DNA of 64,000 nucleotides from Candidatus Anaeroferrophillus wilburensis. GTDB lineage: Bacteria > Desulfobacterota > Anaeroferrophillalia > Anaeroferrophillales > Anaeroferrophillaceae. The notes below the pieces were generated by a model. It saw only the letters and a program-made list of their open reading frames with translations. It searched no databases and was not told the origin of the DNA. Positions 7,963 to 37,845 of this stretch are shown here, in pieces. The stretch spans positions 25,470 to 89,469 of the forward strand of contig JAFGSY010000021.1 in NCBI GenBank assembly GCA_016934315.1, read 5' to 3'. The first letter of the stretch is position 1; each line of letters starts with the position of its first letter. The position numbers and the translations under genes are program-made.

Positions 7963-8073
7963 TATCATTAATACGGTTTTGGCAACAAAACCGCAATGCC
8001 GGGTTGTCTGTTGATGATCCGGTTCATTAAAAAGCGGTTCCCATCGGAACCCCACACAGAGGAGAAGTAGAAG

Positions 8074-8274: not shown

Positions 8275-8407
8275 GCATAGCGTCCAAATCACCCAACTCG
8301 GGTGATGCTTTGTTGCCTCCGGCGGTGAAGTCGGCCGGCAACGAGGTGCAGCTTAGGGTGCTATTGCCGGAGCTGGCTGTAACAGCTTATTTTCTTATGT
8401 ACGCAAT

Positions 8408-15556: not shown

Positions 15557-15625
15557 GGTTTTTTTCCGTATAAAAGGCTCCCTGGCGGCTGCCGGAAAAC
15601 TCCGACGGCCGCCAGGAAACATTGT

Positions 15626-19842: not shown

Positions 19843-19980
19843 GATTATAGCAGTTCTTATCTTTGCCCCATTACCCAGCCAAGGTTAGCGTGGTTGTCTC
19901 TTTACTCTTTTCTCGCCGCTCGCTTCTCATGATCTCCCTGTATTTGATCAGCCCAGTCTCTATTTGGTAAAAGATGTGTT

Positions 19981-20029
19981 GGGTATTTACCCCAGTCCTT
20001 GATGGTGGTGTGGGGTAGATGCCCAATAG
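19981..20029. promoter_or_regulatory. candidate enhancer (UAS): GGGTATTTACCCC ... GATGCCCAATAG
   Basis: Second copy of the motif pair seen at 16581-16619, located 130-175 bp upstream of the sigma-54 promoter at 20157. Confidence 0.4.
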
Positions 20030-20156
20030 TCATATCGGTCTTTCTTGGTCTACGTCTTGGCAAATTCAGCCCCTCTCCTTCGTATTTTTGTGCATCTGTT
20101 TGAATTGTTAATAGTTTTTAATAATATTTGACAATAACAGTAGGCGTTGAGTGCTT

Positions 20157-20172
20157 TGGCACGTATTGTGCA
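20157..20172 (+). promoter_or_regulatory. sigma-54 (-24/-12) promoter for the tetraheme cytochrome gene
   Basis: TGGCAC-GTATT-GTGCA with GG-N10-GC spacing, in an AT-rich region about 150 nt upstream of the ATG at 20325. Confidence 0.65.
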
Positions 20173-20324
20173 AAGTTTCATTTTGTAAGAGCCAAGTGAC
20201 CCTCTTTTGGGGAAGGGAGTCGCAGCAGGAAAGAGGAATTTTTTTAAAGTTCGTAAGAAGAAGGCCAATGTAAGGGAGAAAAGGTTTAACTTTTTATAAT
20301 GGATGGAAGTAAAGGAGAGGAACA

Positions 20325-20984
20325 ATGAAGAAATTAATGATGGCGTTAAGCATTATGGCTTTGGTGCTGGTTGCGGTGCCGGCGTTTGCCCTTCCCGGTG
20401 ATGGAATAGTGGGTTCCCCGCACGATATGAATGTTGTTTCAAACCCTGATGGTCAGGGACGGGTGTGCGCTTTCTGTCATACGCCACACCATGCTTTGGA
20501 TGATGCAAATGCCGATTATCTGCCGCTGTGGTCCCATACGATGACTACACAGACTTTTACTCCCTATGACAGCGTTACTTTGGATGCTGCGGTTACTGAT
20601 GTTCTGGCGGGTCCTTCCCGCCTGTGCATGAGCTGCCACGACGGGGCCATTGCCGTTGATCAGCATTATGCCATTGTCGGTACGGACTACCGGACCGGTG
20701 ATTCCTGGGGCAATATCGCTGTTGGCCAAAATGGCGACCTGACCAACGACCATCCCATCGGTTTTGACTATACCGCAGTCGCCGCGGTGGACGATGAGAT
20801 CAGGCCTGAAACAACCGCGACTACCAATCCGGCCATTCCCACTATTGCCGACCTGCTGCTGGATGGTCAGATCATGACCTGCTCCTCCTGTCATGATGTC
20901 CATAATACTGATAATAATGATGTGGATTTCCTGATCAATCTGCAAGCCGGTTCCGCTATCTGTCTGACCTGCCATGATAAATAG
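20325..20984 (+). CDS. tetraheme c-type cytochrome (paired-CXXCH type)
   Basis: 219 aa. Signal peptide MKKLMMALSIMALVLVAVPAFA. Heme motifs CAFCHTPHH, CMSCHDG, CSSCHDVH and CLTCHDK. Confidence 0.9.
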   Translation: MKKLMMALSIMALVLVAVPAFALPGDGIVGSPHDMNVVSNPDGQGRVCAFCHTPHHALDDANADYLPLWSHTMTTQTFTPYDSVTLDAAVTDVLAGPSRLCMSCHDGAIAVDQHYAIVGTDYRTGDSWGNIAVGQNGDLTNDHPIGFDYTAVAAVDDEIRPETTATTNPAIPTIADLLLDGQIMTCSSCHDVHNTDNNDVDFLINLQAGSAICLTCHDK

Positions 20985-21027
20985 GGTTCAGGAGTTGTGA
21001 ACAGTGCCGGATGTACATGTTAATCAG

Positions 21028-21062
21028 GGCAGCCGCCGGTGAACCGGCGGCTGCCTTTTTTT
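21028..21062 (+). terminator. intrinsic terminator
   Basis: GGCAGCCGCCGG-TGAA-CCGGCGGCTGCC followed by a T7 run. Confidence 0.75.
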
Positions 21063-21135
21063 GACTTGCGCTGCCGGTGGTCAGGGTGCTATCGTCAATT
21101 AAAGCAATCTGAAAGGCGAAGATTGATTTGGAAGG

Positions 21136-22251
21136 GTGCGAGGCAGGATCATGCAGAAGGTAAAGCAGAAAACGGGCAGGATCGGGTGGACATTCCTTGT
21201 TATGCTGCTGGTTGTGGGTAGTTTGTGGGGTTGTGCCGGTCCCCAGGTGGTTGAGGACCACGGTCCGGTTTTCTTTCCGCCGCCGCCGAATCCGCCACGG
21301 CTGCAGTATCTTACCAGCATCTCCTCCTCCCGCGATGTTGACCAGAAGAAGAGCAGCGGCTTTGCCCTGCTGGCGGTGGGTGATGTCCAAGCTGATCAGG
21401 TGAAGCCGGTCGCTAAACCTTATGGTCTGGCGGTTTTTGGTACGAAGCTTTATGTTTGTGATACCGGGTCGGCGCGGGTCATCGTCATTGATTTTGCCGC
21501 CAAAACCTTCGAATATCTCAAAGGGGACTACAGCTTTGGCAAGCTGAAAAAGCCCATCAATCTGGCCGTCGACCGGGAAGGGACGCTTTATGTTGCCGAT
21601 ACGGCCCGTCAGGAGATCCTCGTCTATGGCCCCAGCGGTAATTTTTTGCGGACCATCGGTCGGGAACAGGAGTTGAGACCGGTTGATCTTGCTGTTGATG
21701 GTGACTTTCTTTATGTCACTGATGTCAAAAAGCATCAGGTGATGATTTATGACCGGTTGACCGGCACATTCCTCCAGGGAGTGGGGAACCATCCTGAAAC
21801 ACCTTCGGAAAGTTTGTCCATGCCTTTGGGGTTGGCCGTCGACAGCAAGGGCAGCCTGTTCCTCTCCAACATGGGGCACGGACGGATGATCAATCTTGAC
21901 CGCGACGGCCATTTTCTTGGCTCATTCGGTAAAATGGGAGATGGCTTTGGTCAGTTTGCCCGGCCCAAAGGGGTGGCTATCGATGACCGGGACCGCATCT
22001 ATGTGGTTGATGCCGGCCACCAGAATGTTCAGATTTTCAACCATGAAGGACGTTTGTTGATGTTCTTCGGTGATCCGGGATTGCCTCTTGGTTCCATGAA
22101 CCTGCCGGCCGGCATCGCCGTCACCAGTGAAATGATTGACTTTTTTCAGCCGTATGTTGATCCTTCATTTCGCGTTGAACAGCTGATTTTTGTCACCAAC
22201 CAGTTTGGTGACCACAAGATTACCGTTTATGCCCTTGGTGAACTGAAATAG
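21136..22251 (+). CDS. NHL-repeat six-bladed beta-propeller lipoprotein
   Basis: Lipobox LWGC. Repeated P.GLAVD..G.LYV.D / I.V.D motifs (KPYGLAVFGTKLYVCD, PINLAVDREGTLYVAD, PVDLAVDGDFLYVTD, PLGLAVDSKGSLFLSN, PKGVAIDDRDRIYVVD). Confidence 0.85.
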   Translation: MRGRIMQKVKQKTGRIGWTFLVMLLVVGSLWGCAGPQVVEDHGPVFFPPPPNPPRLQYLTSISSSRDVDQKKSSGFALLAVGDVQADQVKPVAKPYGLAVFGTKLYVCDTGSARVIVIDFAAKTFEYLKGDYSFGKLKKPINLAVDREGTLYVADTARQEILVYGPSGNFLRTIGREQELRPVDLAVDGDFLYVTDVKKHQVMIYDRLTGTFLQGVGNHPETPSESLSMPLGLAVDSKGSLFLSNMGHGRMINLDRDGHFLGSFGKMGDGFGQFARPKGVAIDDRDRIYVVDAGHQNVQIFNHEGRLLMFFGDPGLPLGSMNLPAGIAVTSEMIDFFQPYVDPSFRVEQLIFVTNQFGDHKITVYALGELK

Positions 22252-22267
22252 TACTTATGGTTAGCGA

Positions 22268-22303
22268 GGGGACAGCCGCAGTGCTGTCCCCTTTTGTTTT
22301 TTT
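22268..22303 (+). terminator. intrinsic terminator-like hairpin
   Basis: GGGGACAGC-CGCAGT-GCTGTCCCC followed by TTTTGTTTTTTT. Confidence 0.65.
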
Positions 22304-22317
22304 AACCCACATGTTCC

Positions 22318-22935
22318 GTGAATGGAATGGCTGGCATGCCTGGGAAACAATGGTCGATTCTGGTGCTGGGGAGCATCGCTCTGGTGTTGCTGCTTCTTGC
22401 TGGTTGCGATCCCACAACCCGCCATAAGGTTCTGACTACCATTTTTGACGGGGTTCCCAGTCCGCTGCCGCCAGAGCAGGTGCTGGAAGACTATTACCGG
22501 CAGCGGCTGGCGGCGGAGGCGGAGCAGGCTGCCCAGACAAATGCCGGTGTGGCAGTTGGTGGCCTGGCGATCGGTTCCCGTCATCGGCCCTATACGGAAA
22601 AGAAATGTACCGACTGCCATGATTTCAGCAGTGCCGTCGGCCTGGTTCGTCCTCCTCGTGAATTGTGTGTCATGTGCCACCGTGATTTTGTGCTTCAGGG
22701 AAAAGGGCTTCATGTTCATGGGCCGGTGGCCATCGGCGACTGTTCTGCCTGCCACCTGCCCCATACCTCTGTCCATGGCTCCCTGCTGGAGCAAGATAAA
22801 ACCGACATTTGCAGCAAGTGCCACCAGGAACAGCGGCTGGCGGCTCTTATGCATGATCGGGTCGTGACCCGTGGGATGGCCTGCACCGACTGCCATGATC
22901 CCCATTATGGCGCCGCCCGGTATTTCCTCAAGTAG
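22318..22935 (+). CDS. pentaheme c-type cytochrome lipoprotein
   Basis: 205 aa with lipobox LLAGC and 5 CXXCH motifs (CTDCH, CVMCH, CSACH, CSKCH, CTDCH). Confidence 0.85.
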   Translation: MNGMAGMPGKQWSILVLGSIALVLLLLAGCDPTTRHKVLTTIFDGVPSPLPPEQVLEDYYRQRLAAEAEQAAQTNAGVAVGGLAIGSRHRPYTEKKCTDCHDFSSAVGLVRPPRELCVMCHRDFVLQGKGLHVHGPVAIGDCSACHLPHTSVHGSLLEQDKTDICSKCHQEQRLAALMHDRVVTRGMACTDCHDPHYGAARYFLK

Positions 22936-22944
22936 GGCCCGGTA

Positions 22945-24933
22945 ATGTGGCGTCTGAGCGGGGTACTGATCGGTATTGTTCTCTGTGGACTGCTTGTTCA
23001 TGTCACCCCGGTTGCCGCCCGGCCAAGGGTATTGTTGATGGTTCGGGACTTCCATAATTGGCTCGATTTCTCCTATGAGTATGACGCCCGGGAAAGCACC
23101 GGTGGTCGAGGTGAGGACCTGCAGGAGCGGGATCACCGGCTGGAGGAAGTCTACCATTTCGATATGGCCTATGCCGTCTATCATCCCCGGCTGGTGAACG
23201 GCCGCCTGGGCATTGACCTCGGCCTGAATGAAAATTGGTATGACGGCGGCAACGGCGAGTCGGAGAGTGATGTGGGCACGCTGCTGGAATATGACCTGAC
23301 GGGAACCTTTTTTGACCGTCGGCCCTGTCCGATAAGTTTTTTTTCCCGGTCTGCAAGACGATCTATCCAGCGCCGTTTTGCCGGTAACTATGATTTGGAT
23401 ACGGTCAATCATGGTCTTTCCCTGACATGGCGCAATCAGCAGCTGCCCATCAGCCTGGGTTTTCGCCGCTACAGCAGTGAAACCGATGGCCTGGAGCTTG
23501 ACCGGCAGCAGACCAGCGACACGGTGACCGCCTCGGCTTCCCATTTTTATGGTGACCTGAGCCGTACGGAGTTCAGTTTATATCATGCTGACGATGAAAC
23601 GGATTATGGTGTTTTTGGCCGGACTGAGGATAATCGAACAACCGAGTACAATTTGACCAATGCCCTCACCTGGGGCGATCATAATCGGCCCAGTACTCTC
23701 TCCTCTGCTTATCTCTACCGCAATGAAAACGGAACCAACGATTCCTCATCGTCTGACTGGCGGGAGTTGCTGCGGCTGCAGCTGGGCAAGGCTTTGCGCT
23801 GGACCCTTGACTATGACCAGCGCCGGAATGAGTATGAGGATGTAGAACGGCGGGAGGAGACTGTTGGCAGCCGGTTGGAGCACCAGCTATATGACAGTCT
23901 TTCTACCCGCCTTTCCTATGAAGAGCGGACCCTTGAGATTGACGACGGCTCGGAAGATGAGTGGGAAGGCGGCATCGGCTTCTCCTATCAGAAACAACTG
24001 CCGGCGGCAAGCCACCTTGCCCTTGGCTATGATTTTACCTACGGCGAAACCGATCGCCGCGGGACCGCCGATGACCGGTTTGTCATCGGCGAACCACTGA
24101 TCATGGAGCTCCTGGGGCCTAATGACTTGGTTTTTGCCGATGTGGTTGCTGGCAGCATCACCGTGCTTTCCGCCGATCGCCTAGTTACCTATGTGGAGGG
24201 TGTTGATTACACGATTACCCAGATGGGCCGACAGACGGAACTGCTGCTTACCGCCGGCAGCCTCATCAGCCCAGGGGACCAGGTTGTGGTTGATTACCGC
24301 TATCGGGTTGATCCCGGCATCTCTTTTGCCACCACCACCAACCAGGCATTTGCTTCCTTGTCGCTTTTTTCCCGTCGTTACCGTCTCTATGCCAGCTTCT
24401 ACAATCTTGACCAGGAGCTGCTTTCAGCCAATTCTGGCAGCGGTGACCCCATGCTGCTCAGCGCGGTGACCAGTACTATGCTGGGAATGGAGGCTGTGAG
24501 GGGTTACCATACCTGTGGTTTGGAGATTGCCGATTATGACTCAACTACCGATGCCAGGCAGTATGTCCAGGGGGTCTGGCGCTATGCCCGCTATTTCCGG
24601 ATCCATTACCTGATGCTGATGGTCCGTGACCGTTATACCCGCTATGAGGCGATGGCTGAGGATGTTGGTGGTGATGACGGGGAAAATGTTCTGGACGCCG
24701 GTTTTGCCTACCGGCGGCGCCTGCCCTATGGCGCCATGGCCGGGTTCAGCGTTAATTATCTCAACCAGCGTGGCCGGGATAATGACCGTGACGAGCTGGA
24801 TATTGATTGTTCCTACAAGCTGCGGGTCGGCCGTTTGGAGCTGGAGCTGCAGGCCACCCAGCAGTGGGAGTGGCAGGCCAGCCGCCGCGACCGGGACGAC
24901 CGGGTAATGCTGACGTTCCGCCGCTATCTCTAA
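22945..24933 (+). CDS. putative outer-membrane beta-barrel protein (porin-like partner of the cytochromes)
   Basis: 662 aa with a signal peptide (VHVTPVAARP) and no Cys or heme motifs. It is rich in alternating aromatic/polar stretches and in Y/R/D/G (LDFSYEYDARES, GLSLTWRN, FSLYHADDE, GIGFSYQKQ, AGFAYRRRL, VMLTFRRYL). Its position between cytochrome genes mirrors porin-cytochrome clusters. The fold is not proven. Confidence 0.5.
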   Translation: MWRLSGVLIGIVLCGLLVHVTPVAARPRVLLMVRDFHNWLDFSYEYDARESTGGRGEDLQERDHRLEEVYHFDMAYAVYHPRLVNGRLGIDLGLNENWYDGGNGESESDVGTLLEYDLTGTFFDRRPCPISFFSRSARRSIQRRFAGNYDLDTVNHGLSLTWRNQQLPISLGFRRYSSETDGLELDRQQTSDTVTASASHFYGDLSRTEFSLYHADDETDYGVFGRTEDNRTTEYNLTNALTWGDHNRPSTLSSAYLYRNENGTNDSSSSDWRELLRLQLGKALRWTLDYDQRRNEYEDVERREETVGSRLEHQLYDSLSTRLSYEERTLEIDDGSEDEWEGGIGFSYQKQLPAASHLALGYDFTYGETDRRGTADDRFVIGEPLIMELLGPNDLVFADVVAGSITVLSADRLVTYVEGVDYTITQMGRQTELLLTAGSLISPGDQVVVDYRYRVDPGISFATTTNQAFASLSLFSRRYRLYASFYNLDQELLSANSGSGDPMLLSAVTSTMLGMEAVRGYHTCGLEIADYDSTTDARQYVQGVWRYARYFRIHYLMLMVRDRYTRYEAMAEDVGGDDGENVLDAGFAYRRRLPYGAMAGFSVNYLNQRGRDNDRDELDIDCSYKLRVGRLELELQATQQWEWQASRRDRDDRVMLTFRRYL

Positions 24934-24960
24934 GGGCTTTGTAAACAGTCCATGTAAGAA

Positions 24961-25090
24961 GCTGTCAGGTTTCAGGTTTGTGGTCATTCTCGCCTGCCAT
25001 CCCTGGCCGGCTCCGAGGTGTCCGCCGCGAATCACCATCCGGGTGATTCGTCCGGCGGCCAAAACCGCTTAAAACCTGAAACCTGACAGC
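24961..25090 (+). repeat. intergenic palindromic element, copy 1 (130 nt)
   Basis: The outer 19-bp perfect stem GCTGTCAGGTTTCAGGTTT / AAACCTGAAACCTGACAGC encloses the conserved core ...TCATTCTCGCCTGCCATCCCTGGCCGGCTCCGAGGTGTCCGCCGCGAATCACCATCCGGGTGATTCGTCCGGCGGCCAAAACCGCT. Confidence 0.9.
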
Positions 25091-25159
25091 GTATTTCCCC
25101 CGGCTCATGTGCCATAGGTTTATGTCAAGAAAAGCGGAAAAATTGACGAAGGGATAGCT

Positions 25160-25729
25160 ATGATGGCCGATATTGAACCCACCTATAGACGTCGTTTTAT
25201 CCTCAAAATCTGTACTTGCTTTCTGGTGACCGTTGCTGCCGTCAGTTTTGGCCTCTACGGTTATCTTGATCGGCCATTTGCCGGCGGTTATCTGGCTGCC
25301 ATTTCCACTCTCGACCAGCTGCAGCATGATATTCTTCTCGGTGTTGTGGTGTCCATTGCCGTTCAGCTGCTGGTGTTTGCCGTGCTGGTGTTTGCCATCT
25401 CTCTTTTCTGGACCCATAAAATTGCCGGTCCTCTCTATCGCCTGAAAAAAACCTTTTGCCGTATTGGTGTCGGAGACTTTTCTCCCATGGCGGGGCTGCG
25501 CCGCGGTGATCAGCTCCAGGAGGTGCCGTCCCAGTTCAATGCCGGCCTGGCGGTCTATGGGGAGACCATGGCCCGGACCAGCCGGGAACTGCAGGCCCTG
25601 CTGGACGAGCTTGCGACCATGGAACGAGATGTCCCTACCGCCCGGATGGTCGAGCGGGAGCGGCTGTCGGGGGTTGATGCCCGTATCCAGGCACTTATAC
25701 TCGAACAGGAACGGCTGCTGCATGCGTAA
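25160..25729 (+). CDS. small 2-TM membrane protein with a HAMP-like linker (paralog of 26582..27172)
   Basis: 189 aa. Two hydrophobic segments, then WTHKIAGPLYRLKKTFCRIGVGDFSPMAGLRRGDQLQEV (HAMP-like) and a short coiled-coil tail. Confidence 0.6.
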   Translation: MMADIEPTYRRRFILKICTCFLVTVAAVSFGLYGYLDRPFAGGYLAAISTLDQLQHDILLGVVVSIAVQLLVFAVLVFAISLFWTHKIAGPLYRLKKTFCRIGVGDFSPMAGLRRGDQLQEVPSQFNAGLAVYGETMARTSRELQALLDELATMERDVPTARMVERERLSGVDARIQALILEQERLLHA

Positions 25730-26585
25730 AACTCTTGGCCTGATAGTTATGTTGCTGGTGGTTTCGTTGTTTCTTTGCCAGCTGGGATCAGAAAATACCA
25801 ATCCTCACTTGGGGGAGGTGGCCTGCGATGAATGTCACCTGGGTGTCCCGACGGCCGGCGATGCCGGCAGCAAGCTGTTTGTTGCCGATATCGAGACCCT
25901 CTGCCTCCGCTGCCACCGCGATATTACCCTCGCCATGTCTCATCCCGTGGCCCTCAAGCCCACGTTTTCCCTGCCTGTCGATATGCCTCTTGACTGGAAA
26001 GGGGAACTGACGTGCTCCACCTGCCATTACATGCATGAGCATGATGACCAGCCGTACCATGACCAGGCTGTTTTTCTCCGACGCAATTCGGTCGGCCAGG
26101 CGTTCTGTCAGGAGTGCCACCAGCAGGGCTTCATGATGAATCGGACCCTCGGTCACAGCCTGGCCAAAAGTGATGCCCATTACACGCCCTATGGCAGCAG
26201 TGCCGCCGCCGACAGTTTCGGTGGAACTGATGCATCCCCTCTGCTGGATGAGTCGTCATCGGCCTGCCTCACCTGCCACGATGGTTCCATAGCCCGTGAT
26301 GAAGGGACAACGGAGATGAGTGCCGGGGCAATCTCCCTGGGAGCAGGAATCTGGCGTCATGACGGTGATTACGGCCGCAACAGCCATCCCTTGGGGGTCA
26401 GGTATGGTGATGCCCGACGCCGGCGCAGCGGCTACCGTGATGCCGCCATGCTGCCCAGCGTCATCCGGTTGCCGGGGGGGAAGGTTGAATGTGTTTCCTG
26501 CCATAATCCTTACTCTACCAATGATTCACTGCTGGTTATTGACAATCGCGGGAGTCGGTTATGTCTGACATGCCATCTCAAATGA
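25722..26585 (+). CDS. heptaheme c-type cytochrome
   Basis: Start at MRKTLGLIVMLLVVSLFLCQ, overlapping the upstream stop codon. There are 7 CXXCH motifs. The C-terminal part (CLTCHDGSIA...SHPLGVRY...CVSCHNPY...CLTCHLK) resembles the 20325 tetraheme module. Confidence 0.85.
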   Translation: MRKTLGLIVMLLVVSLFLCQLGSENTNPHLGEVACDECHLGVPTAGDAGSKLFVADIETLCLRCHRDITLAMSHPVALKPTFSLPVDMPLDWKGELTCSTCHYMHEHDDQPYHDQAVFLRRNSVGQAFCQECHQQGFMMNRTLGHSLAKSDAHYTPYGSSAAADSFGGTDASPLLDESSSACLTCHDGSIARDEGTTEMSAGAISLGAGIWRHDGDYGRNSHPLGVRYGDARRRRSGYRDAAMLPSVIRLPGGKVECVSCHNPYSTNDSLLVIDNRGSRLCLTCHLK

Positions 26586-27172
26586 AGAAAAAGTCCTATG
26601 TCCGGCGAACCTACCTGGTTGACCGGACTTTCCAGGTTCGTTTTTCGCTGCTTTTTTTCGGTGGCGTAATGGTGCTCGGCCTGCTGGCCGGGGTGGCCAC
26701 CTATGTGCCGGCCAGAAATATGCTTGTCCGCCATCTCTATTCACCCCATATTTCCTTTGCCGCCTCCGGCGAGATTCTCGCCAGGCTGTTTATCTGGCTG
26801 AATGTCGGTTTTGCCTTACCGTTGATTGTCTTTTCTCTGATGCTGGTTACCTGGTATGTCCGGCGGACGGCCGGTTCTCTGCAAAGGCTGCGGGCCAGCC
26901 TGGCAGTCTTGGCCGCCGGCCGGATTCCCCCAGCGCTTTTTTTTCGCCGTCGTGACCCTTTAAACGCTGTTGCGGCGGACCTCAACCTGATGGTCGTGAG
27001 CTTTAGGGACCGCCAGCAGATCATTATCCAACACCTGCAGGCTGCCAGAGCGTTGTTGAAGATTGAGGATGAGCGTGAAGGTTTGTCTCAGCCTTTACCA
27101 GTCTTGGAACAGGTGCGGCGGGAGGTTCAGGCAGCCCTGGAGGTCATTCCCGAGAGGGAGGCTCTGCTATGA
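26582..27172 (+). CDS. small 2-TM membrane protein with a HAMP-like linker (paralog of 25160..25729)
   Basis: ATGA overlap with the cytochrome stop. The N-terminus is KKKSYVRRTYLVDRTFQVRFSLLFFGGVMVLGLL, a second TM follows, then WYVRRTAGSLQRLRASLAVLAAGRIP. Confidence 0.6.
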   Translation: MKKKSYVRRTYLVDRTFQVRFSLLFFGGVMVLGLLAGVATYVPARNMLVRHLYSPHISFAASGEILARLFIWLNVGFALPLIVFSLMLVTWYVRRTAGSLQRLRASLAVLAAGRIPPALFFRRRDPLNAVAADLNLMVVSFRDRQQIIIQHLQAARALLKIEDEREGLSQPLPVLEQVRREVQAALEVIPEREALL

Positions 27173-28215
27173 AGGGGGGATGTGGCGAACAGTGGCGATG
27201 CATCCTTTTTCTGATGTTGTTTATGCTGGCCTCCTGTTCAACCGGAACCCTGCAGGAACAAGGTGGCCTCGAGCCCGTGCCGGTGTGGCCGGCACCGCCT
27301 GCAGCAGCTCGGATTGTCTGGGTAGAGGAGGTCAGCCGGTTTCAGGATATTTGTGGCCAGCCAGGCTTCTGGCAGCGGCTCAAAGAGGTCCTGGTGGGCA
27401 AAATAAGCACCGGCATGGTTAAACCCTATGGCATCTATATAGACGAGGAACAACGTCTGTACGTGGTTGATTCAGGCAGCGGTTTCATCCACCTGATGGA
27501 TCCTAATGCCGGCTGCTACCGGGCCATCCCCGGGCCGGATGACGGCTTGGTGCTGCCGTCGCCCATCGGTGTTGCCGGTGATGATCAGGGGCAGGTGTTT
27601 ATCACCGATTCCAAGTTGGGGAAGGTGTACCGCTACCTTCCCGATGATGGTTCCCTGCAGCCGCTGACCAGGATGACCCTCAAGCGGCCCGCCGGGATTG
27701 CCTACCACCGGCTCAACCGGCTGCTCTATGTGGCTGAAGCGGGTGTACACCAGGTGGTGGCCTTTGACCGTCAGGGGATCGAACAGTTTCGTTTTGGCAG
27801 CCATGGCAAGAGGCCGGGAGAATTTAACTTCCCTACTGCTGTCTGTGTCGATCAGCGGGGCCAGGTACTGGTGACGGACGCCCTTAATGCCCGGGTGCAG
27901 ATATTTACCCCTGAAGGCCAGTTTGTCGCTGCTTTCGGGGAGCCCGGTGATACTTCCGGGACCTTTGCCAAACCGAAAGGGGTGGCGGTCGACAGCGAGG
28001 GGCATGTCTACGTCTGTGATGCCCTGTTTGATGCCGTCCAGATCTTTGACCAGGAGGGCAGGCTGTTGCTAACCTTCGGCCAGAGTGGCTCTGCGCCCGG
28101 AGAGTTCTGGATGCCCAGCGGTATCAGTATTGACAGCCGCGATTATATCTATGTTGCTGATTCCTATAATCGCCGGGTCCAGGTATTCAGATATGTGAGG
28201 GAAGGCGAAAGGTGA
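27169..28215 (+). CDS. NHL-repeat beta-propeller lipoprotein (second copy)
   Basis: Lipobox LASC. NHL blades include PYGIYIDEEQRLYVVD, PIGVAGDDQGQVFITD, PAGIAYHRLNRLLYVAE, PTAVCVDQRGQVLVTD, PKGVAVDSEGHVYVCD and PSGISIDSRDYIYVAD. Confidence 0.85.
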   Translation: MKGGCGEQWRCILFLMLFMLASCSTGTLQEQGGLEPVPVWPAPPAAARIVWVEEVSRFQDICGQPGFWQRLKEVLVGKISTGMVKPYGIYIDEEQRLYVVDSGSGFIHLMDPNAGCYRAIPGPDDGLVLPSPIGVAGDDQGQVFITDSKLGKVYRYLPDDGSLQPLTRMTLKRPAGIAYHRLNRLLYVAEAGVHQVVAFDRQGIEQFRFGSHGKRPGEFNFPTAVCVDQRGQVLVTDALNARVQIFTPEGQFVAAFGEPGDTSGTFAKPKGVAVDSEGHVYVCDALFDAVQIFDQEGRLLLTFGQSGSAPGEFWMPSGISIDSRDYIYVADSYNRRVQVFRYVREGER

Positions 28216-28265
28216 AAGGCGAAAGGTTGAAGGATCAAGGCTCAAGGATAAGAGAGAAAGGTTGA
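28203..28265 (+). repeat. heptad-periodic array (9 x 7 nt, AGG-phased)
   Basis: AGGCGAA AGGTGAA AGGCGAA AGGTTGA AGGATCA AGGCTCA AGGATAA GAGAGAA AGGTTGA. It spans the NHL gene stop and the spacer before the next cytochrome gene. Confidence 0.8.
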
Positions 28266-28325
28266 TGGCTGGCGGAAAGGGACTGTCGGGTGAGTCGGAG
28301 ACTGCGGGATAAAGGTAGGAAGCAG

Positions 28326-29972
28326 ATGAAAAAGAATGCTGAAGGTTGCAGGATGGTGTTGGCGGTTGTCCTGGTGATGCTGCTGGGTATCTCGACGGGA
28401 TGGGCGGCCGGGGTTGCCGATACCCGGCACAATTTGTCGGTGAGTGGCCCCGGCGAGATTGTAGCCACCGCTGAGGTGCGGATCTGTATCTTCTGCCATA
28501 CGCCCCACCATGCCAGTCCCACCCAGCCGTTGTGGAGCCGGGAGCTGAGCGGAGCTTCCTACGACCTTTATGCCTCGACCACCATCAAGGCCCAGCCGGG
28601 GCAGCCCACCGGCGCCTCCCGTCTCTGTCTCAGCTGTCATGACGGCACCGTGGCCCTCGGGCTGCTCCACGATGCCGCAGTACCGATCACCATGGCCGGC
28701 GGCATCACGACCCTGCCGTCGTCCCGATCCACCAACTTGCAGACCGATCTTGCCGATGATCATCCCATCTCCTTTGCCTACACCGCTGCTCTGGCTGCTG
28801 TTAATGGTGAACTGCGGGATCCCGCAACCCTGCCGGCGGCCATTAAATTGGAGGAGGGCAGCCAGCTCCAGTGCACCGCCTGCCACAACCCCCATAAGGA
28901 TCCATACGGCAAGTTCCTGGTGATGGACAACGCCGGCGCGGCGCTCTGCGTCGCCTGCCATGATAAAACCGGCTGGGCATCAAGCACCCACGCCACGGCT
29001 TCGGGGGTTGCCGGCCAGGGCTGCAATGCCTGCCATGTACCCCATAATGCCGGCGGCCGGGAGCGGCTGTTGAAAAGTCAGCAGGAAGAGCAGAACTGTT
29101 TTCCCTGCCATGACACCAGCGGCAGCGAGATCGATGTGCTGACCGATTTTACCAAGTTGCACCATCACCCGGTGGAGGCAACAGCCGGTGAGCATGATCC
29201 CCTGGAGGACCCGCTCACTGCCCTCTATCACGTGGAGTGCAGCGACTGTCACAATCCCCACCGGCTCAACGACACGGCGGCGACGCCGCCTTTAGTGACC
29301 GGCCAACTGGCTGGCGTCAAGGGGGTTACCATTGCCGGTCTGGTGGTGGCCGAATCCCAGTACCAGTATGAGATCTGCTTCCGCTGCCACGCCGACAACT
29401 CCTTTTCCCCGGTGGTCGCCATTCCCCGGCAGATCCAGGAAGTCAACGAGCGGCTCCGCTTTGACCCGGCCAATCCCTCCTACCATCCGGTGGCCGCCAT
29501 CGGCAAACAGCCCTCGGTTCCCAGCCTGAGGCCGGAGTATTCGTCTGCCAGCATGATCTACTGCAGCGACTGTCATAACAGCGACACCGGAAGCATGGTC
29601 GGTGGTGCCGGGGCTGATGGCGTCCATGGCTCCAGCAATCCCCGGCTGCTGGTGGCCCGCTATGAGCAGGATGCCTACCCGCTGAGCTACGCGGAAAGCA
29701 ATTATGCCCTCTGTTTCCGCTGCCATGATCCCAATGTGCTCATGGACCGTTTCCGGTCCAACTTTCCCAGTCACCGTAGTCATGTGATTGCCAAGCAGAC
29801 TCCCTGCTCCGTCTGTCACGATCCCCATGGGGTGCCGCTGGTGGGGGGCGCTACCACCACCGGCAACGCCCATCTGATCAACTATGATAGCCGCTTTGTT
29901 ACCGGCACCTATAATTCGGTGACCCGCAGCTGCACGGTAAACTGTCATATGATGAACCCCCGCAGTTATTAA
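28326..29972 (+). CDS. multiheme c-type cytochrome (11 CXXCH plus a C-terminal CX3CH)
   Basis: Start at MKKNAEGCRMVLAVVLVMLLGISTGWA within ORF 28290..29972. The first 210 aa or so are homologous to the 20325 tetraheme protein (CIFCHTPHH, CLSCHDG, DHPISFAY, CTACHNPH, CVACHDK). The C-terminus is SCTVNCH. Confidence 0.85.
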   Translation: MKKNAEGCRMVLAVVLVMLLGISTGWAAGVADTRHNLSVSGPGEIVATAEVRICIFCHTPHHASPTQPLWSRELSGASYDLYASTTIKAQPGQPTGASRLCLSCHDGTVALGLLHDAAVPITMAGGITTLPSSRSTNLQTDLADDHPISFAYTAALAAVNGELRDPATLPAAIKLEEGSQLQCTACHNPHKDPYGKFLVMDNAGAALCVACHDKTGWASSTHATASGVAGQGCNACHVPHNAGGRERLLKSQQEEQNCFPCHDTSGSEIDVLTDFTKLHHHPVEATAGEHDPLEDPLTALYHVECSDCHNPHRLNDTAATPPLVTGQLAGVKGVTIAGLVVAESQYQYEICFRCHADNSFSPVVAIPRQIQEVNERLRFDPANPSYHPVAAIGKQPSVPSLRPEYSSASMIYCSDCHNSDTGSMVGGAGADGVHGSSNPRLLVARYEQDAYPLSYAESNYALCFRCHDPNVLMDRFRSNFPSHRSHVIAKQTPCSVCHDPHGVPLVGGATTTGNAHLINYDSRFVTGTYNSVTRSCTVNCHMMNPRSY

Positions 29973-30508: not shown

Positions 30509-33500
30509 ATGAAAAAAATTCATCTAACCACCGCTTTGCTGGCGGCAGTGATTCTGCTGTTTGGTATGGTGGGCAGTTCCATGGCAATCCATCCCGACAT
30601 TGATTTGTTGGATGCCGACGGAAATCCCATTTCCTCGGCCGGTGGGCTGCAGCCGGCATTCAGTTATAAAACAACCTGTGGCGCCTGCCACAACGGGGTC
30701 AACCTTGACGGCGAGGGCAATGTCCTGCTGAGCTACGATGACATCGAACAGCACAGCCTGCATGCCCAATTGTCTGCCAACCAGTTCATGGGTTGGAACA
30801 TCTGGAATCCCGATTCAGCCAATTCCTACAAAAAAGGCCCGGCTCCGAAAGGCAAGAACTGGGTCCAGAGTCCCGGCCATTTCGGCAAGTGGTGACCGCC
30901 GTCAGCGCGCCAGTTGGCGCATCTTTTTGCTGACGCTTCAAATCCCACCTACGATGCCGCGAGCGCCAAATATAATGACGGCGGCATGAATCTAAACTTT
31001 ACTCCTTATAATTTTGGCAGCGAGGCTGCTTTTAAACAGCAGGTTGACCTGGCCATTGCCGGCATGATGCAGGATTGCGCCGAGTGCCATGTGGGCGGCG
31101 GGGCGATGGAATATGTTCCGGCCCCGACGGCCAACGCCAATGACCGGGTTTCTCTGCGTGACATCTATGCCACGCCGCTCAGCTATACCAAAGATTCCGG
31201 CGGCAATACAGTTCCTTTCGGGCCGTTTGACAGCAATATGTTTACCGCCTTCAACAAGTTCATCGATACTTTCGATGTTGACGGCGACGGTGATAAGCTG
31301 GAAGTGCTGGATGCCGACTGGCCGAATACCGGAGTCATCGAAATGGACTGTTTCCTCTGCCACCTCCAGGGCTACAAGTACCAGGACCGGGTTGCCGCCC
31401 AGCGGGCAGCCAAGTTCGACGTCTCCCGGGTGGTCGGCAGCGGTGTCGGGACGGCCAACACGCTTGCCTGGGATCCGAATTCCACCGTGCCGCCTGAAGG
31501 CTATGGTACCGACGTGACCTATAACAACTATGTTCAGGATAATGGTTCCGGCAACCTTAAATTCCACTATGCCATCAACTATTACCTGAAGGAATTTCCC
31601 CCCAGTGACAACTGTGCCTTCTGCCACTTCGGCAAACCCGCCGTCGACTGGAAGAAGCGCGGCGACAACTGGGCCAATGCCACCCAGACCTATGAGGTCC
31701 ATAAGGCTGTTGGCTGCATAGGCTGTCACCAGGCTAAAGTTGGCACGGTGATCGGTACTGACAACGTTGCCGACGGCAACCTCGGTCAGTGCGATCCGGC
31801 CAAGGGGATTGCCCCCTACAGCAGTGCCTGGAATAATACCGACGGTACCGTCAAGACCTGCGAAGACTGCCATCTCAATTACGGTTATGATGAAGATCTC
31901 GGCACCTACAGCCCCGCATACGGCGCTCCCAACCCAACCGGTGCCCATCAGGCTGCCGGGTTGACGGCGGTGCTCTGTCAAACCGGTGAAAATGGGGTGG
32001 CCAACGCCAGCCACCTGGATATTATCGACTGTGCCGCCTGTCACGTTCGCAAAATTGCCGATCCGGCCACCAACCCCTGGAACACCGGCGGTGCCATCGT
32101 TGATGCCACTGGCGCTGACATCGAAGGCCGCATGGCTGACCATGAAAACGAATATGTCCATCGGGAGATGTATGACCCCGACGACGATGCCACCAACATC
32201 ACCTTTTCCTGGCTGCAGGGCAAAATTATTGCCACCAGCGTCCTGAACACCGTCTACTGGCGCGACAAGAATGATGTCAACCACGACGTCAACGCTGATG
32301 GTCGCGGGGGCGGCATGGACACACCGCTGACCACCCATGTCCTGGCGGTCAATGAAGTCAACGGTTGGACAAACCTGGCCGAAGACAACCATGGTCATAT
32401 TACTAGTACGGAGATTGGTGCCCGGATCACTGCGCTGGAGAATGGACTGCCGGCTCTAACCGGCAAACCTGGTACGCCGGTCATCAAAATCTCAACCATG
32501 GCCGTGCCTTTCAAGGTCAATCACAACATCGCTCCGAAGCAGTACGCCATCGGCAAGCAGTGTACCGACTGCCATGGCAATACTGCTGATCTTGACAGCG
32601 ATGGCGACGGCATCAGCAACGGCGGCATCTTCAACGGCGCCTACACAATGCAGGGCGTCAATATGGATATGACCAATCTTGCTACTCAGGTAACGCCACT
32701 GACTAAGGCGAACTCCTTTGAGGATGTGACAGACTTCCATCCCAACACCAAGAACAAGTTGGCTACCCGGACCATTCCCATCAAAAACTGGAGTGGCCTG
32801 ACCACCATGCGTGCTGTGGACCGCAGTGAAACCCTGTGGGAAAACACCTTCAGGGCCCGTAATACCACTTGGCATGCCAACGGTGATCCCATCGTCGGCG
32901 GCGCCATCCCCTTCCCGGCTCCGGGGTCAACCGGTGCCAACACCAAGGGTCTGTGGCTCAAGGTCGAAGTTGACACCAATCTGGACGGCGTTACGGATGT
33001 GACCCGGACCCGGATGGTCAATTCCTTTGTTGACAGTACGGCTGGTATGTCTGGTCTGTTGAATGACCTTGGCTCCGGTGCTACTGATGGAACAGACTTC
33101 ACCGATGACTTCGAATTTGTGATTTCCGACAATGGTGCCGGCGGTCTGCAGATTGAAGCCAAGGCCGGCAATCAGATCCGTCTGAATCCGGCAACCACCT
33201 CCGGAGCCACGGGGCTCAATTTGGTGGGTTATGTCTGGACGCCGACCCCGATTATCGGTGTAGACGGCAATCCATATCCTGGTCGAACCGAGTGGGTTGC
33301 CTATCTGAATTCCATTAATCCAAACGATGTCGGTATCGGGCTTGATCCGATTGCCGATATCGCCACCATCGATGGTCAGGATCCTGATCTGGTGCTGCCT
33401 TACATTGAGATCATTAAGGGTAGTACGGTAACCTTGGTTGCCGACGATCCCGCTGCCGCCGGGGTTTTCAGGTATACCTGGACCTTCAGTGACAGCACTG

Positions 33501-33910
33501 CGGTTGGTGAGGCACAGTCGGTCCAGTATACCTTCAATACTACCGGCCTGGTTACCGTTTTCCTGACGGTCATCGACGAAGAGAACAAACTTTCCCAGCA
33601 GTCGGTCAAGGTCAATGTCATTGTGCCGCCGCCGGTAACGGGTCTTACCTATGATGCAACGGCCGGCGATCCGAATGTCACCTTGCATCTGGTCGGTCTG
33701 CCAACCCATGATAGACTTTATTTCTACTATGGTGACGGCCTCAGGCAGCAGATCTATGACTCTGCAGATTCCTTTGACTTGGTTCACACCTATCGTTTCA
33801 AAAGCAAGTATCTTACGGGAGGGAACTACAGCTACAATACCTCGGTACGGATCTACAATGGCAGCACCCTGGTTGAAACGCTGCAGGAAAACGTGCTGAT
33901 CCCTCAATGA
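30509..33910 (+). CDS. giant secreted octaheme c-type cytochrome with a PKD-like C-terminal domain; reading frame interrupted by one in-frame TGA (30893-30895), so either a candidate selenoprotein or a pseudogene
   Basis: ORFs 30509..30895 (signal peptide plus CGACH) and 30914..33910 (7 CXXCH, no signal peptide, no ATG/RBS) are in the same frame, separated only by a TGA. A hairpin follows the TGA. The C-terminal segment FRYTWTFSD...YTFNTTGLVTVFLTVIDEEN is PKD-like. Confidence 0.6.
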
Positions 33911-35886: not shown

Positions 35887-35890
35887 AAAA

Positions 35891-35939
35891 ACGGTGCACG
35901 GTATACGGTGTACGGTGAAAGGCTGAGGGGGGAAAGGCG
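35891..35939 (+). repeat. heptad-periodic array in the trpE-trpD spacer (7 x 7 nt)
   Basis: ACGGTGC ACGGTAT ACGGTGT ACGGTGA AAGGCTG AGGGGGG AAAGGCG, then the ATG of trpD. Confidence 0.75.
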
Positions 35940-37004
35940 ATGATCAGACACTATATCGAACAGGTGGTGCAGCGGCATGATCTGAGCGAAGCTGAGATGA
36001 TTGCAGCGATGACCGAAATTATGGAAGGTCGGGCCAGCGACGCTCAAATAGCCGCTTTTATTACCGGTCTGCGGATGAAGGGTGAAACCATTGACGAGAT
36101 CACTGGGGCGGCCCGGGTAATGCGCCAGAAGGCAACGCCGGTGCCGGTGGCCGGCGCCGCAGTGAGTCTTGATCGGGATGATATTACCATTGATGAGGAA
36201 ACCATCGTCGATACCTGCGGTACCGGTGGCGACGGCACCAACACCTTCAATATTTCCACCGCCACCGCCTTCGTGGTGGCGGCGGCCGGCCTTAAGGTGG
36301 CCAAACACGGCAACCGCTCGGTTTCCAGCCAGTGCGGCAGTGCCGATGTCATCCGGGCTCTGGGGGTGAATCTCGATCTGAGCCCGGAACAGGTGGGGTG
36401 CTGTGTTGCCGAGGTGGGAATCGGTTTCCTGTTTGCGCCGCTGCTCCACTCGGCGATGAAATATGCCATCGGTCCCCGGCGGGAGATAGGCATCCGGACG
36501 ATCTTCAACCTTCTGGGGCCGCTGACCAATCCGGCCGGAGCCGGGGTCCAGGTGCTGGGTGTCTATGATCCGGCCCTGACGATGGTTATCGCCGGGGTTC
36601 TGCAGCGTCTGGGGGCGCGCCATGCCATGGTTGTCCATGGTGAAGGCTGCCTTGATGAAATGAGTCTGGTGGGGGCCACCAGGATTTCCCGTCTGCAGGA
36701 GGGGGAAATAACCACCTTTTCCCTGACGCCTGAAGATGCGGGCCTGGCATCGGCGCCATTGTCGGCGGTCAAGGGCGGTGATGCCACGGCTAATGCCAGG
36801 ATTCTGCTGGATATCTTCGCCGGCCAGCTGGGACCCCGGCGTGATGTGGTGTTGCTCAACGCGGCGGCGGTGTTTGTCACTGCCGGTTTGGCGGCGGATT
36901 TCCGCCGGGGGGTAACAATAGCCGCCGAAGCCATCGACAGCGGCAAGGCGCTGAGCAAGGTGGAGCGCCTGATAGCCTTCAGCAATCAGCTGGCCGGGGA
37001 GTAG
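35940..37004 (+). CDS. trpD: anthranilate phosphoribosyltransferase
   Basis: 354 aa. [18 protein letters not shown] and KHGNRSVSS motifs. Confidence 0.95.
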
Positions 37005-37034
37005 CATCCGGCATTCTAACGCCTGACTTCCGGA

Positions 37035-37817: not shown

Positions 37818-37845
37818 CCCCGCATTGGCGCTGGTGAGGTGAACA

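What the first reader, a model, noticed from the sequence alone, without database searches (positions are those of the whole stretch)
30509..33910. Giant octaheme cytochrome interrupted by a single in-frame UGA followed by a SECIS-like hairpin
ORF 30509..30895 encodes a Sec-type signal peptide and the first heme motif (CGACH), and ends ...SPGHFGKW-TGA. ORF 30914..33910 (7 more CXXCH, PKD-like end) is in the same frame, has no ATG, no Shine-Dalgarno sequence and no signal peptide. A periplasmic or extracellular c-type cytochrome cannot mature without one, so the two ORFs must be one polypeptide of about 1133 codons reading W-[UGA]-PPSARQLAHLF. A two-tier hairpin begins 5 nt after the UGA. The lower stem is CGUCAGC/GCUGACG (30900-30906 with 30929-30935). 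The upper stem is GCGCC/GGCGC (30907-30911 with 30916-30920), with apical loop AGUU. The upper stem starts 11 nt after the UGA, which is the spacing described for the E. coli fdhF SECIS. The options are selenocysteine insertion, a very recent nonsense mutation or pseudogene, or a sequencing error. Desulfobacterota are known to be rich in selenoproteins, but I know of no established Sec-containing multiheme cytochrome of this type.
Basis: partly seen in the sequence, partly recalled or inferred. Interest (0 to 1): 0.75.

Follow-up and report, generated by a model that had tools for sequence, protein, structure and literature searches.

The report
Unannotated selenocysteine octahaem cytochrome family
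The in-frame TGA is almost certainly a selenocysteine codon in one large exported eight-haem cytochrome, and that cytochrome belongs to a widespread family (two copies in Geobacter sulfurreducens) that databases still split into two genes and that is missing from current lists of selenoproteins.

Summary
Bases 30509-33910 form one gene of 1133 codons: a signal peptide, eight CXXCH motifs, C-terminal PKD/Ig domains, and UGA at codon 129.

- **Conservation of the TGA.** 48 of 50 informative homologous loci from Desulfobacterota have TGA at exactly this codon, in frame on both sides. The others have Cys (TGT) or Asp. More distant continuous homologues have W-C-P at the site.
- **Conservation of the motif.** WVQSPGHFGKW-U-PPS is the most conserved stretch of the whole protein.
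- **Hairpin.** It lies at a fixed distance after the UGA in every Sec form, is 90% paired, and shows compensatory changes. It uses otherwise rare codons: TTG in 42 of 42 Leu codons against 8% background, and AGA.
- **Independent model.** A covariance model trained without the window hits 30893-30931 at 46.6 bits.
- **Ordinary stops.** TGA ends 7 of 18 well-supported genes in the window.

The family does not match MccSep/ExtKL, the OTR octahaem family or the GSU2204 family. It is absent from a 2026 inventory of 119 selenoprotein families, and RefSeq annotates it as "cytochrome C" plus "PKD domain-containing protein".

Not shown: selenium in the protein, sel genes in this MAG, the position of Sec relative to the haems, and the substrate.

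The parts
30509..33910 (+). One gene of 1133 codons plus stop, encoding an exported octahaem c-type cytochrome selenoprotein
   Evidence: Reading frame is continuous except for UGA at codon 129. Homologues are conserved in frame on both sides of the TGA. Continuous Cys and Asp forms exist.
30509..30586 (+). Signal peptide: 26 aa, with a predicted SPase I site SMA/IH and no lipobox
   Evidence: Read from the sequence by eye. All 50 homologous upstream ORFs start with a comparable n-h-c region. No signal-peptide predictor was run.
30677..30691 (+). Haem-1 binding motif CGACH (residues 57-61)
   Evidence: The two Cys and the His are invariant in the N-terminal fragment alignment. The spacing between the Cys residues varies across the family.
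30860..30907 (+). Codons for WVQSPGHFGKW-U-PPS(A), the most conserved block of the protein
   Evidence: It is the top-scoring 15-residue conservation window (0.90) across 37 reconstructed full-length members, above every haem motif.
30893..30895 (+). UGA read as selenocysteine (residue 129)
   Evidence: TGA in 48 of 50 loci, TGT in 1 and GAT in 1. Cys in P0232, P0256, P0302, P0304 and P0311.
30900..30935 (+). SECIS-type hairpin. Lower stem 30900-30906 with 30929-30935 (specific to this clade). Upper stem 30907-30911 with 30916-30920 (conserved across the family). Loop AGUU at 30912-30915.
   Evidence: Fold. Family stem is 90.4% paired, with 3 pairs showing compensatory changes. Codon skew. Covariance-model hit at 30893-30931, 46.6 bits. 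The lower stem keeps 6 of 7 pairs in L006, with one A-U to G-C double change (read from the alignment).
31076..32575 (+). Region holding haem motifs 2-8: CAECH, CFLCH, CAFCH, CIGCH, CEDCH, CAACH and CTDCH
   Evidence: The motifs are invariant in the family alignment.
31790..31792 (+). Cys428 in LGQ-C-DPAKG. This position is Cys in about 22 members and His in about 14, so it is a candidate axial haem ligand.
   Evidence: The role is inferred only.
33416..33616 (+). PKD domain within a C-terminal region of Ig/FN3-like beta-sandwiches
   Evidence: Pfam PF18911 and PF00801. Confident beta-sandwich domains in the AF2 model of homologue P0028. Foldseek hits to tandem FN3/Ig proteins.
18451..29972 (+). 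Conserved upstream cluster: multihaem cytochromes (18451-19842, 20325-20984, about 25700-26585, 28290-29972), two NHL beta-propellers (21136-22251, 27169-28215), a 662-aa signal-peptide protein with no known domain (22945-24933), and small proteins of 189 and 203 aa
   Evidence: Pfam. The same gene order lies next to the homologues in G. sulfurreducens, Dissulfurirhabdus thermomarina and Malonomonas rubra.

Best explanation
Bases 30509-33910 are a single gene for an exported c-type cytochrome of about 120 kDa with eight haems. UGA at codon 129 is recoded to selenocysteine by the standard bacterial route: SelB with Sec-tRNA(Sec) binds the hairpin that begins 10-11 nt after the UGA, inside the coding sequence.

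Steps shown here:
- The UGA, the reading frame on both sides and the hairpin with its spacing are conserved across Desulfuromonadia, Desulfobulbia and relatives.
- Homologues have Cys at the site.
- The hairpin is under selection at the nucleotide level.

Steps inferred:
- Sec sits in the most conserved motif, G-(H/M)-x-G-x-W-U-P-P-S-x-R-Q, five residues after a position that alternates between His and Met. It is therefore probably a redox-active residue beside a haem.
- It most likely acts as a nucleophile on a chalcogen or metalloid substrate, as in MccSep.
- It may work together with the Cys/His-alternating residue 428.
- Less likely, Sec is itself a ligand to a metal or to haem iron.
- The protein would be the terminal member of a conserved extracytoplasmic electron-transfer cluster of NHL propellers, multihaem cytochromes and a possible outer-membrane protein.
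- When Sec insertion fails, only the 128-aa monohaem fragment would be made.
For: - TGA at the aligned codon in 48 of 50 loci, with TGT in one.
- Every locus has a signal-peptide ORF of about 115-150 aa, then TGA, then an in-frame ORF of about 1000 aa with 7-9 CXXCH motifs and no signal peptide of its own.
- About 90 C-terminal and about 110 N-terminal database proteins are cut at exactly this point.
- Continuous Cys forms have W-C-P.
- The Sec-centred 15-mer is the most conserved segment of the protein.
- The hairpin is 90.4% paired, against 30-65% in slid controls. Twelve cells in three pairs show compensatory change. There are no indels between the UGA and the stem in 49 sequences.
- Codon skew: Leu+7 is TTG in 42 of 42 cases against 8% background. 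Arg+9 is AGA or AGG in 32 of 38 cases against 7% AGA. Ala+8 is GCG in 42 of 45 cases against 14%.
- The Cys form L059 has lost the stem through synonymous changes. Two of the five non-Sec forms are not detected by the covariance model.
- The model, trained without the window's clade, hits 30893-30931 at 46.6 bits. The next best hit in the window is 16 bits.
- TGA is an ordinary stop in 7 of 18 genes in the window.
- G. sulfurreducens carries two copies with the same UGA and hairpin. That organism is experimentally shown to insert Sec at a UGA in another multihaem cytochrome (PMC13510729).
Against: - No direct evidence of selenium in the protein.
- selA, selB, selC and selD were not found in the 64-kb window, and the rest of the MAG could not be searched.
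- Three homologues have Asp, not Cys, at the site.
- The hairpin overlaps strongly conserved codons (ARQLA), so part of its conservation comes from the protein.
- Covariation involves only three pairs, and the +2 slid control scores as high on the covariation measure.
- RNAalifold did not recover the stem on its own.
- Hairpin remnants persist in some non-Sec forms, and one Sec form (L015) has the same AGAU loop as a Cys form.
- Both AF2 models leave the Sec region below pLDDT 50, so its position relative to the haems is unknown.
Confidence: 0.88

Rival explanations
1. Two separate genes. The UGA is a true stop that ends a small secreted monohaem cytochrome, and the large protein starts independently, for example by reinitiation at the TTG in the hairpin loop (30914).
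For: Gene callers and RefSeq annotate it this way. A start-capable codon (TTG or ATG) lies at codon +7 in 43 of 49 Sec forms.
Against: - The six codons between the TGA and the TTG (PPSARQ) are among the most conserved in the protein and stay in frame.
- Six Sec forms have GCG, TGG or TTT at +7 and so have no start there.
- The downstream protein has 7-9 CXXCH motifs but no signal peptide. By established knowledge, cytochrome c maturation needs export of the apoprotein.
- The Cys and Asp forms are continuous polypeptides.
- The conserved TTG is explained by the hairpin loop.
Confidence: 0.05
2. Programmed UGA readthrough without selenocysteine, for example near-cognate Trp or Cys insertion stimulated by the hairpin.
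For: The comparative data prove that the UGA is conserved and functional. They do not prove which residue is inserted. The sel genes were not verified in this MAG.
Against: - The replacement in continuous homologues is Cys, the classic Sec counterpart, in at least six lineages.
- The hairpin's position, size and G-containing apical loop fit the bacterial SECIS pattern. Those criteria are recalled from memory (Zhang and Gladyshev 2005; E. coli fdhF).
- All identified hosts belong to Sec-using Desulfobacterota lineages (PMC1794560, PMC13510729).
Confidence: 0.05
3. Pseudogene, recent nonsense mutation, or sequencing or assembly error.
For: None beyond the presence of the stop codon itself.
Against: The same TGA occurs in 48 other genomes and in both G. 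sulfurreducens paralogues. It also appears in three independent assemblies of this organism. Both halves are under strong purifying selection.
Confidence: 0.01

Closest known systems
MccSep / ExtKL (GSU2937-2936), the Sec-containing pentahaem polysulfide reductase of G. sulfurreducens (PMC13510729; NCBIfam NF040886)
   Same: It is an exported multihaem c-type cytochrome. Its gene was long annotated as two ORFs split by an in-frame UGA followed by a SECIS-like hairpin. Sec is followed by Pro, Sec and Cys forms coexist, and it occurs in the same sulfur- and iron-reducing Desulfobacterota. It is the best functional analogy for a catalytic Sec working beside a haem.
   Different: - No detectable sequence relationship: no NF040886 hit even at E<=10.
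- Eight haems and about 1133 aa here, against five haems and about 49 kDa.
- Sec lies at residue 129, before seven of the eight haem motifs. In MccSep it lies in a C-terminal Ig-like domain.
- No invariant Cys ligand outside the CXXCH motifs, only a Cys/His alternation at residue 428.
- A minority of members have Asp at the Sec site.
- The family has C-terminal PKD/Ig domains and a different gene neighbourhood.
Tetrathionate-reductase-family octahaem cytochrome, selenoprotein variant (TIGR04315; listed in PMC13188914)
   Same: An octahaem c-type cytochrome with an annotated Sec-containing subset.
   Different: TIGR04315 gives no hit to the window protein and 10.6 bits, against a cutoff of 375, for a G. 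sulfurreducens copy. All eight motifs here are CXXCH, with no CXXCK. The CXXCK feature of OTR is recalled from memory.
GSU2204-family CXXCH-containing (seleno)protein (NF041027; PMC13188914)
   Same: A Geobacter selenoprotein linked to extracellular electron-transfer clusters.
   Different: No NF041027 hit. That family is described as an MtrB/PioB-type outer-membrane beta-barrel, not a multihaem PKD protein.
Bacterial SECIS elements, such as E. coli fdhF
   Same: A hairpin inside the coding sequence just 3' of the UGA. The upper stem starts 10-11 nt after the UGA, and the small apical loop carries G-U (AGUU or AGGU). The E. coli details are recalled from memory.
   Different: The sequence is specific to this family. 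No Rfam family matches. SelB binding was not tested.
MtrC/OmcA-type outer-surface multihaem cytochromes
   Same: A marginal Pfam MtrC/MtrF domain II/IV hit (32.2 bits against a cutoff of 30). Beta-sandwich domains are combined with haem domains, and the gene context suggests extracellular electron transfer.
   Different: TIGR03507 scores 7-8 bits against a cutoff of 209. This family has eight haems rather than ten, no lipobox, and a Sec residue.

Membership tests
Bacterial selenoprotein gene (UGA recoded through a SECIS) | In-frame UGA conserved at the same codon in orthologues, with coding conservation on both sides | tested here: met
   48 of 50 loci plus the window. Two copies each in G. 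sulfurreducens and Dissulfurirhabdus. The flanking motif is the conservation maximum of the protein.
Bacterial selenoprotein gene (UGA recoded through a SECIS) | Homologues with Cys at the aligned position | tested here: met
   TGT in L008. W-C-P in P0232, P0256, P0302, P0304 and P0311. Three Asp forms also exist.
Bacterial selenoprotein gene (UGA recoded through a SECIS) | Stem-loop just downstream at fixed spacing, with a small apical loop that has G in its first two positions (criteria recalled from memory, bSECISearch) | tested here: met
   The loop AGUU starts 16 nt after the UGA. The stem is 5-6 bp. There are no indels in 49 sequences.
Bacterial selenoprotein gene (UGA recoded through a SECIS) | RNA-level selection on the hairpin: covariation, and constraint on synonymous sites | tested here: met
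   90.4% paired, with 3 pairs showing compensatory changes. TTG, AGA and GCG are strongly enriched. The stem is lost through synonymous changes in Cys form L059. Caveat: there are few covarying pairs and RNAalifold found no stem.
Bacterial selenoprotein gene (UGA recoded through a SECIS) | selA, selB, selC and selD present in the same genome | not testable with these tools
For G. sulfurreducens, which carries two copies, Sec decoding is established (PMC13510729, PMC1794560).
Bacterial selenoprotein gene (UGA recoded through a SECIS) | Selenium incorporated in the polypeptide | not testable with these tools
   Needs 75Se labelling or mass spectrometry.
MccSep / ExtKL | Match to the family model NF040886 | tested here: not met
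   No hit at E<=10 for the window protein, P0028, P0033 or either G. sulfurreducens copy.
MccSep / ExtKL | Five conserved CXXCH motifs, then a C-terminal Ig-like domain carrying the Sec/Cys site (PMC13510729) | tested here: not met
   Eight CXXCH motifs, with Sec at residue 129, upstream of seven of them.
MccSep / ExtKL | Strictly conserved Cys as distal ligand of the active-site haem | tested here: inconclusive
   No invariant Cys outside the CXXCH motifs. Residue 428 alternates between Cys and His, and its role is unknown.
OTR-family octahaem cytochrome (TIGR04315) | Match to TIGR04315 above its cutoff | tested here: not met
   No hit for the window protein. 10.6 bits against 375 for the G. 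sulfurreducens copy.
GSU2204-family CXXCH (seleno)protein (NF041027) | Match to NF041027 | tested here: not met
   No hit at E<=10.
MtrC/OmcA decahaem cytochromes | Match to TIGR03507, and ten haems | tested here: not met
   7-8 bits against a cutoff of 209. Eight haems. Only the Pfam domain PF22113 passes, and only just.

The most novel reading that the evidence does not exclude
This would be a second, evolutionarily independent class of selenium-haem enzyme. It is an exported octahaem cytochrome of about 120 kDa in which Sec (replaceable by Cys or Asp) works at, or is bound to, a haem or metal centre whose distal ligand can be His or Cys. It would serve as the terminal reductase of a conserved, so far uncharacterised electron-transfer cluster (probably GSU3221-3233) in Geobacter, Desulfuromonas, cable-bacteria relatives and sulfur disproportionators. 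Both G. sulfurreducens copies have gone unrecognised as selenoproteins.
Probability: 0.35. Interest if true: 0.85.

Novelty: new variant of a known kind. Interest (0 to 1): 0.7.

Why it matters
Sec-dependent multihaem cytochromes were only established experimentally in 2026, with MccSep, where Sec turned out to be the key to elemental-sulfur respiration.

A second, unrelated and much larger Sec-cytochrome family would matter for three reasons:
- It would show that pairing selenium with haem chains is a recurrent solution in anaerobic respiration.
- It would correct a systematic annotation error. Hundreds of database entries are split into "cytochrome C" of about 130 aa and "PKD domain-containing protein" of about 1000 aa.
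- It would give an immediate experimental handle. The cluster in the genetically tractable G. sulfurreducens is reported to be induced by iron-oxide minerals, with GSU3228 up 8-fold (PMC4070692).

It also implies a selenium requirement for part of the extracellular electron-transfer machinery of these bacteria.

Tried and rejected
- **Rfam.** No SECIS family matched, at gathering or permissive thresholds.
- **PDB sequence search.** Only a weak haem-motif match to HAO, E = 0.0014.
- **RNAalifold on the 49-sequence alignment.** It did not return the hairpin, so I counted pairs on an explicitly specified structure instead.
- **First combined alignment.** MAFFT misplaced the N-terminal fragments in A4. 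Local tests showed they align correctly only when four or fewer C-terminal rows are present.
- **AF2 job 1.** Target was the Asp-form homologue P0028 with a deep C-terminal alignment. It gave pLDDT 81.9, but residues 65-130, which include the Sec-equivalent site, stayed below 50.
- **AF2 job 2.** This used a deep N-terminal alignment. Residues 11-110 were resolved, but 111-144 stayed below 50 and the rest collapsed.
- **Model coordinates.** They are not exposed, so no Sec-to-haem distances could be measured.
- **Foldseek against the PDB.** It returned only FN3/Ig tandem proteins, matching the C-terminal domains.
- **Third homologue search with a junction-spanning profile.** It returned mostly N-terminal fragments and did not list the known full-length forms, so it cannot be used to count non-Sec forms. 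The exhaustive HMMER search was used for that instead.
- **Scan of the window for other TGA-split frames.** No other selenoprotein candidate was found.
- **Megablast of the RNase P gene against plasmids.** An uninformative search.
- **Genome-wide TGA reassignment.** Rejected, because TGA ends 7 of 18 well-supported genes.
Full report
**1. The observation**

The window has TGG-TGA at 30890-30895. Translating 30509-33910 in one frame gives 1133 codons with a single internal stop at codon 129.
- The first 128 codons carry a typical signal peptide, judged by eye, and the motif CGACH.
- The remaining 1004 codons carry seven more CXXCH motifs.
- Pfam places PKD domains near the C-terminus and gives a marginal MtrC/MtrF domain hit.
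- On this sequence alone it is only moderately unusual: -19.7 kcal/mol, z = -2.1.
- One detail needs correcting. An in-frame ATG exists at 30986 and one gene caller used it. No possible start gives the large ORF a signal peptide.

**2. Comparative evidence for recoding**

A protein search found about 90 homologues. Nearly all cover only the part of the query after the TGA. Searches with the N-terminal part found more than 100 proteins of 113-158 aa that end in ...GKW, which is at the TGA.

I fetched DNA for 52 loci from species-representative genomes and read the aligned codon.
- It is TGA in 48 of the 50 informative loci.
- It is TGT (Cys) in a Desulfocapsa MAG.
- It is GAT (Asp) in one Malonomonas rubra paralogue.
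- Every locus has the same layout: a signal-peptide ORF of about 115-150 aa, the TGA, then an in-frame ORF of about 1000 aa with 7-9 CXXCH motifs.

An exhaustive HMMER search of 1.84 billion representatives with the N-terminal profile found continuous proteins with W-C-P at the site: P0232, P0256, P0302, P0304 and P0311. It also found three Asp forms.

Across 37 reconstructed full-length members, the most conserved 15 residues of the whole protein are WVQSPGHFGKW-U-PPS, above any haem motif.

TGA ends 7 of 18 well-supported genes in the window, including this gene's own stop, so the recoding is site-specific.

The same TGA-terminated ORF is present in the NCBI MAG (GCA_016938755.1, contig JAFGTY010000019.1) and in two Logan assemblies from different runs.

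**3. The RNA element**

In an ungapped alignment of 49 Sec forms, a 6-bp stem (columns 17-22 with 27-32) closes a loop that is AGUU in most members.
- 90.4% of cells pair, against 30-65% when the 3' partner is slid.
- Three pairs show changes on both sides. Examples are U-A to G-C, made by the Ala wobble base together with an AGA/CGN Arg switch, and C-G to A-U.
- The codons in the element are abnormal for these genes. Leu is TTG in 42 of 42 cases (8% elsewhere). Arg is AGA or AGG in 32 of 38 cases (AGA 7% elsewhere). Ala is GCG in 42 of 45 cases (14% elsewhere). Gln is CAG in 49 of 49 cases.
- This also explains why gene callers found a TTG "start" there.
- The distance from the UGA to the stem never varies.

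The lower stem of the window's hairpin is specific to its clade. It is kept in L006 with one A-U to G-C double change (read).

Among the five non-Sec forms for which I obtained DNA:
- The Cys form L059 has lost the stem through synonymous changes (-2.8 kcal/mol, against a mean of -10.1 for Sec forms).
- The others have altered loops.
- With n = 5, and one Sec form (L015) sharing the AGAU loop, this evidence is only supportive.

A covariance model built from 31 distant members, leaving out the window's clade, hits the window at 30893-30931 with 46.6 bits. The next best hit in the window is 16 bits. It also finds the untrained G. sulfurreducens and Dissulfurirhabdus sites, and misses two of the non-Sec forms.

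Weaknesses:
- RNAalifold did not recover the stem.
- The +2 slid control has a similar covariation score.
- The element overlaps conserved codons.
- Rfam has no matching family.

**4. What the protein is**

It matches none of the three haem-related selenoprotein families listed in the 2026 inventory (PMC13188914).
- There is no hit to ExtKL NF040886 or to GSU2204-family NF041027.
- There is at most 10.6 bits, against a cutoff of 375, to OTR TIGR04315.
- None of the 119 families in that table corresponds to it.
- A 2007 stop-codon screen found only GSU2937+2936 (PMC1914089).
- Searches for selenocysteine together with this kind of protein found nothing.

G. sulfurreducens PCA has two copies, each with the UGA and the hairpin.
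- Copy 1: AAR36618 (137 aa) plus AAR36619 (991 aa).
- Copy 2: AAR36623 (121 aa) plus AAR36624 (1063 aa).
- GenBank, RefSeq and UniRef name them "cytochrome C" or "Cytochrome c, 1 heme-binding site" and "PKD domain-containing protein".
- From accession order and the published list of cytochrome genes, I infer these are GSU3227+3228 and GSU3232+3233. This mapping was not verified by a tool.
- Kato et al. report GSU3221, 3223, 3226, 3228 (8-fold), 3232 and 3233 as induced by haematite and magnetite (PMC4070692).

The neighbourhood is conserved in G. sulfurreducens, Dissulfurirhabdus and Malonomonas. The window itself has the upstream part of it, from the paired-CXXCH cytochromes through to the split gene, and is then followed by the trp operon. 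The order in the three genomes is:
- paired-CXXCH cytochromes
- an unknown protein of about 650 aa
- NHL propellers
- a multihaem cytochrome of about 550 aa
- the split gene
- a LuxR/PAS-HisKA_3 two-component pair
- a second split paralogue

**5. Mechanism**

Shown: a conserved UGA, a SECIS-like hairpin, Cys counterparts, and an exported multihaem context.

Inferred:
- Sec is a functional redox residue near a haem. It lies in the conservation maximum, five residues after a position that is His in most members and Met in others. Both are haem axial ligands.
- Nine His residues outside the CXXCH motifs are conserved, for eight haems.
- Residue 428 is either Cys (as in the window) or His, inside the invariant DPAKG motif. 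A second haem ligand may therefore switch between His and Cys, which would echo the His/Cys haem next to Sec in MccSep (PMC13510729).
- The Sec/Cys/Asp alternation is also the pattern seen for metal ligands in molybdoenzymes (from memory). A ligand role therefore cannot be excluded.

The geometry remains untested. The substrate is unknown.

**6. Verdict**

What is new is that this is a distinct, widespread and currently mis-annotated selenoprotein family. It is analogous to the recently characterised MccSep but not related to it.

Direct proof of selenium incorporation, and the sel genes of this MAG, remain to be checked.

Noticed in passing
window 30677-30691; N-terminal fragments P0113-P0329: The first haem-binding motif has variable Cys spacing across the family. 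CX2CH occurs in 95 fragments, CX4CH in 21 and CX5CH in 21, with rarer spacings including CX8CH in 4. The G. sulfurreducens copy has TCFGTAGCH. This may explain why some N-terminal ORFs were not recognised as cytochromes.
   Followed up: partly
window 31790-31792 (Cys428): Inside the invariant motif LG-x-DPAKG, the family splits cleanly into [Q/L/M]-Cys (about 22 members) and His (about 14). This is the pattern expected for an axial haem ligand that switches between Cys and His.
   Followed up: partly
L057 (Malonomonas rubra) and L060 (metagenome SRR13394436): The Asp-type continuous paralogues sit in tandem with Sec-type split paralogues, separated by a divergently transcribed LuxR-type response regulator and a PAS/HisKA_3 kinase. 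Malonomonas has at least four paralogues in a row. L060 comes from the same sequencing run as one assembly of the window's own contig.
   Followed up: partly
window 22945-24933: A 662-aa protein with a signal peptide, no Pfam domain and strand-like hydrophobic alternation is conserved in the cluster (677 aa in G. sulfurreducens, 654 aa in Dissulfurirhabdus). It may be an outer-membrane beta-barrel of a porin-cytochrome conduit.
   Followed up: partly
L055 4880-5953 (G. sulfurreducens CP010430.1): In this strain an IS element (DDE transposase) interrupts the 677-aa gene of the cluster, leaving a 178-aa remnant.
   Followed up: no
L038 (Geotalea toluenoxydans JCM 15764): The ORF after the TGA runs only 113 codons before another stop. 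This is probably a frameshift or draft-assembly error, or a decaying copy.
   Followed up: no
L024 (MAG labelled Thiobacillaceae), L021 and L031 (labelled Proteobacteria/Pseudomonadota): Typical Geobacter-like Sec forms of the gene occur in MAGs with non-Desulfobacterota labels. The contigs may be mis-binned, or the labels may be outdated.
   Followed up: no
window 15622-15628, minus strand: A 263-aa ORF and the 646-aa PAS histidine kinase lie in the same frame, separated by a single TGA. The sequence after it has a very stable predicted fold (-32 kcal/mol over 47 nt). It was treated as two adjacent genes and not examined further.
   Followed up: no
window 7998-8314; 62494-62888; 34402-40449: There is an Rfam cspA-thermoregulator match just above threshold (79.6 bits against 78) and a bacterial RNase P class A RNA (319.7 bits). 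A trp gene cluster (trpE, D, C, F, B, A by Pfam) lies directly downstream of the cytochrome gene.
   Followed up: no
window 42697-42717 (-), 59104-59196: The family SECIS covariance model gives weak hits here (14-16 bits, rough E of 4e-4 to 4e-3). They are short gapped alignments and probably chance matches.
   Followed up: no
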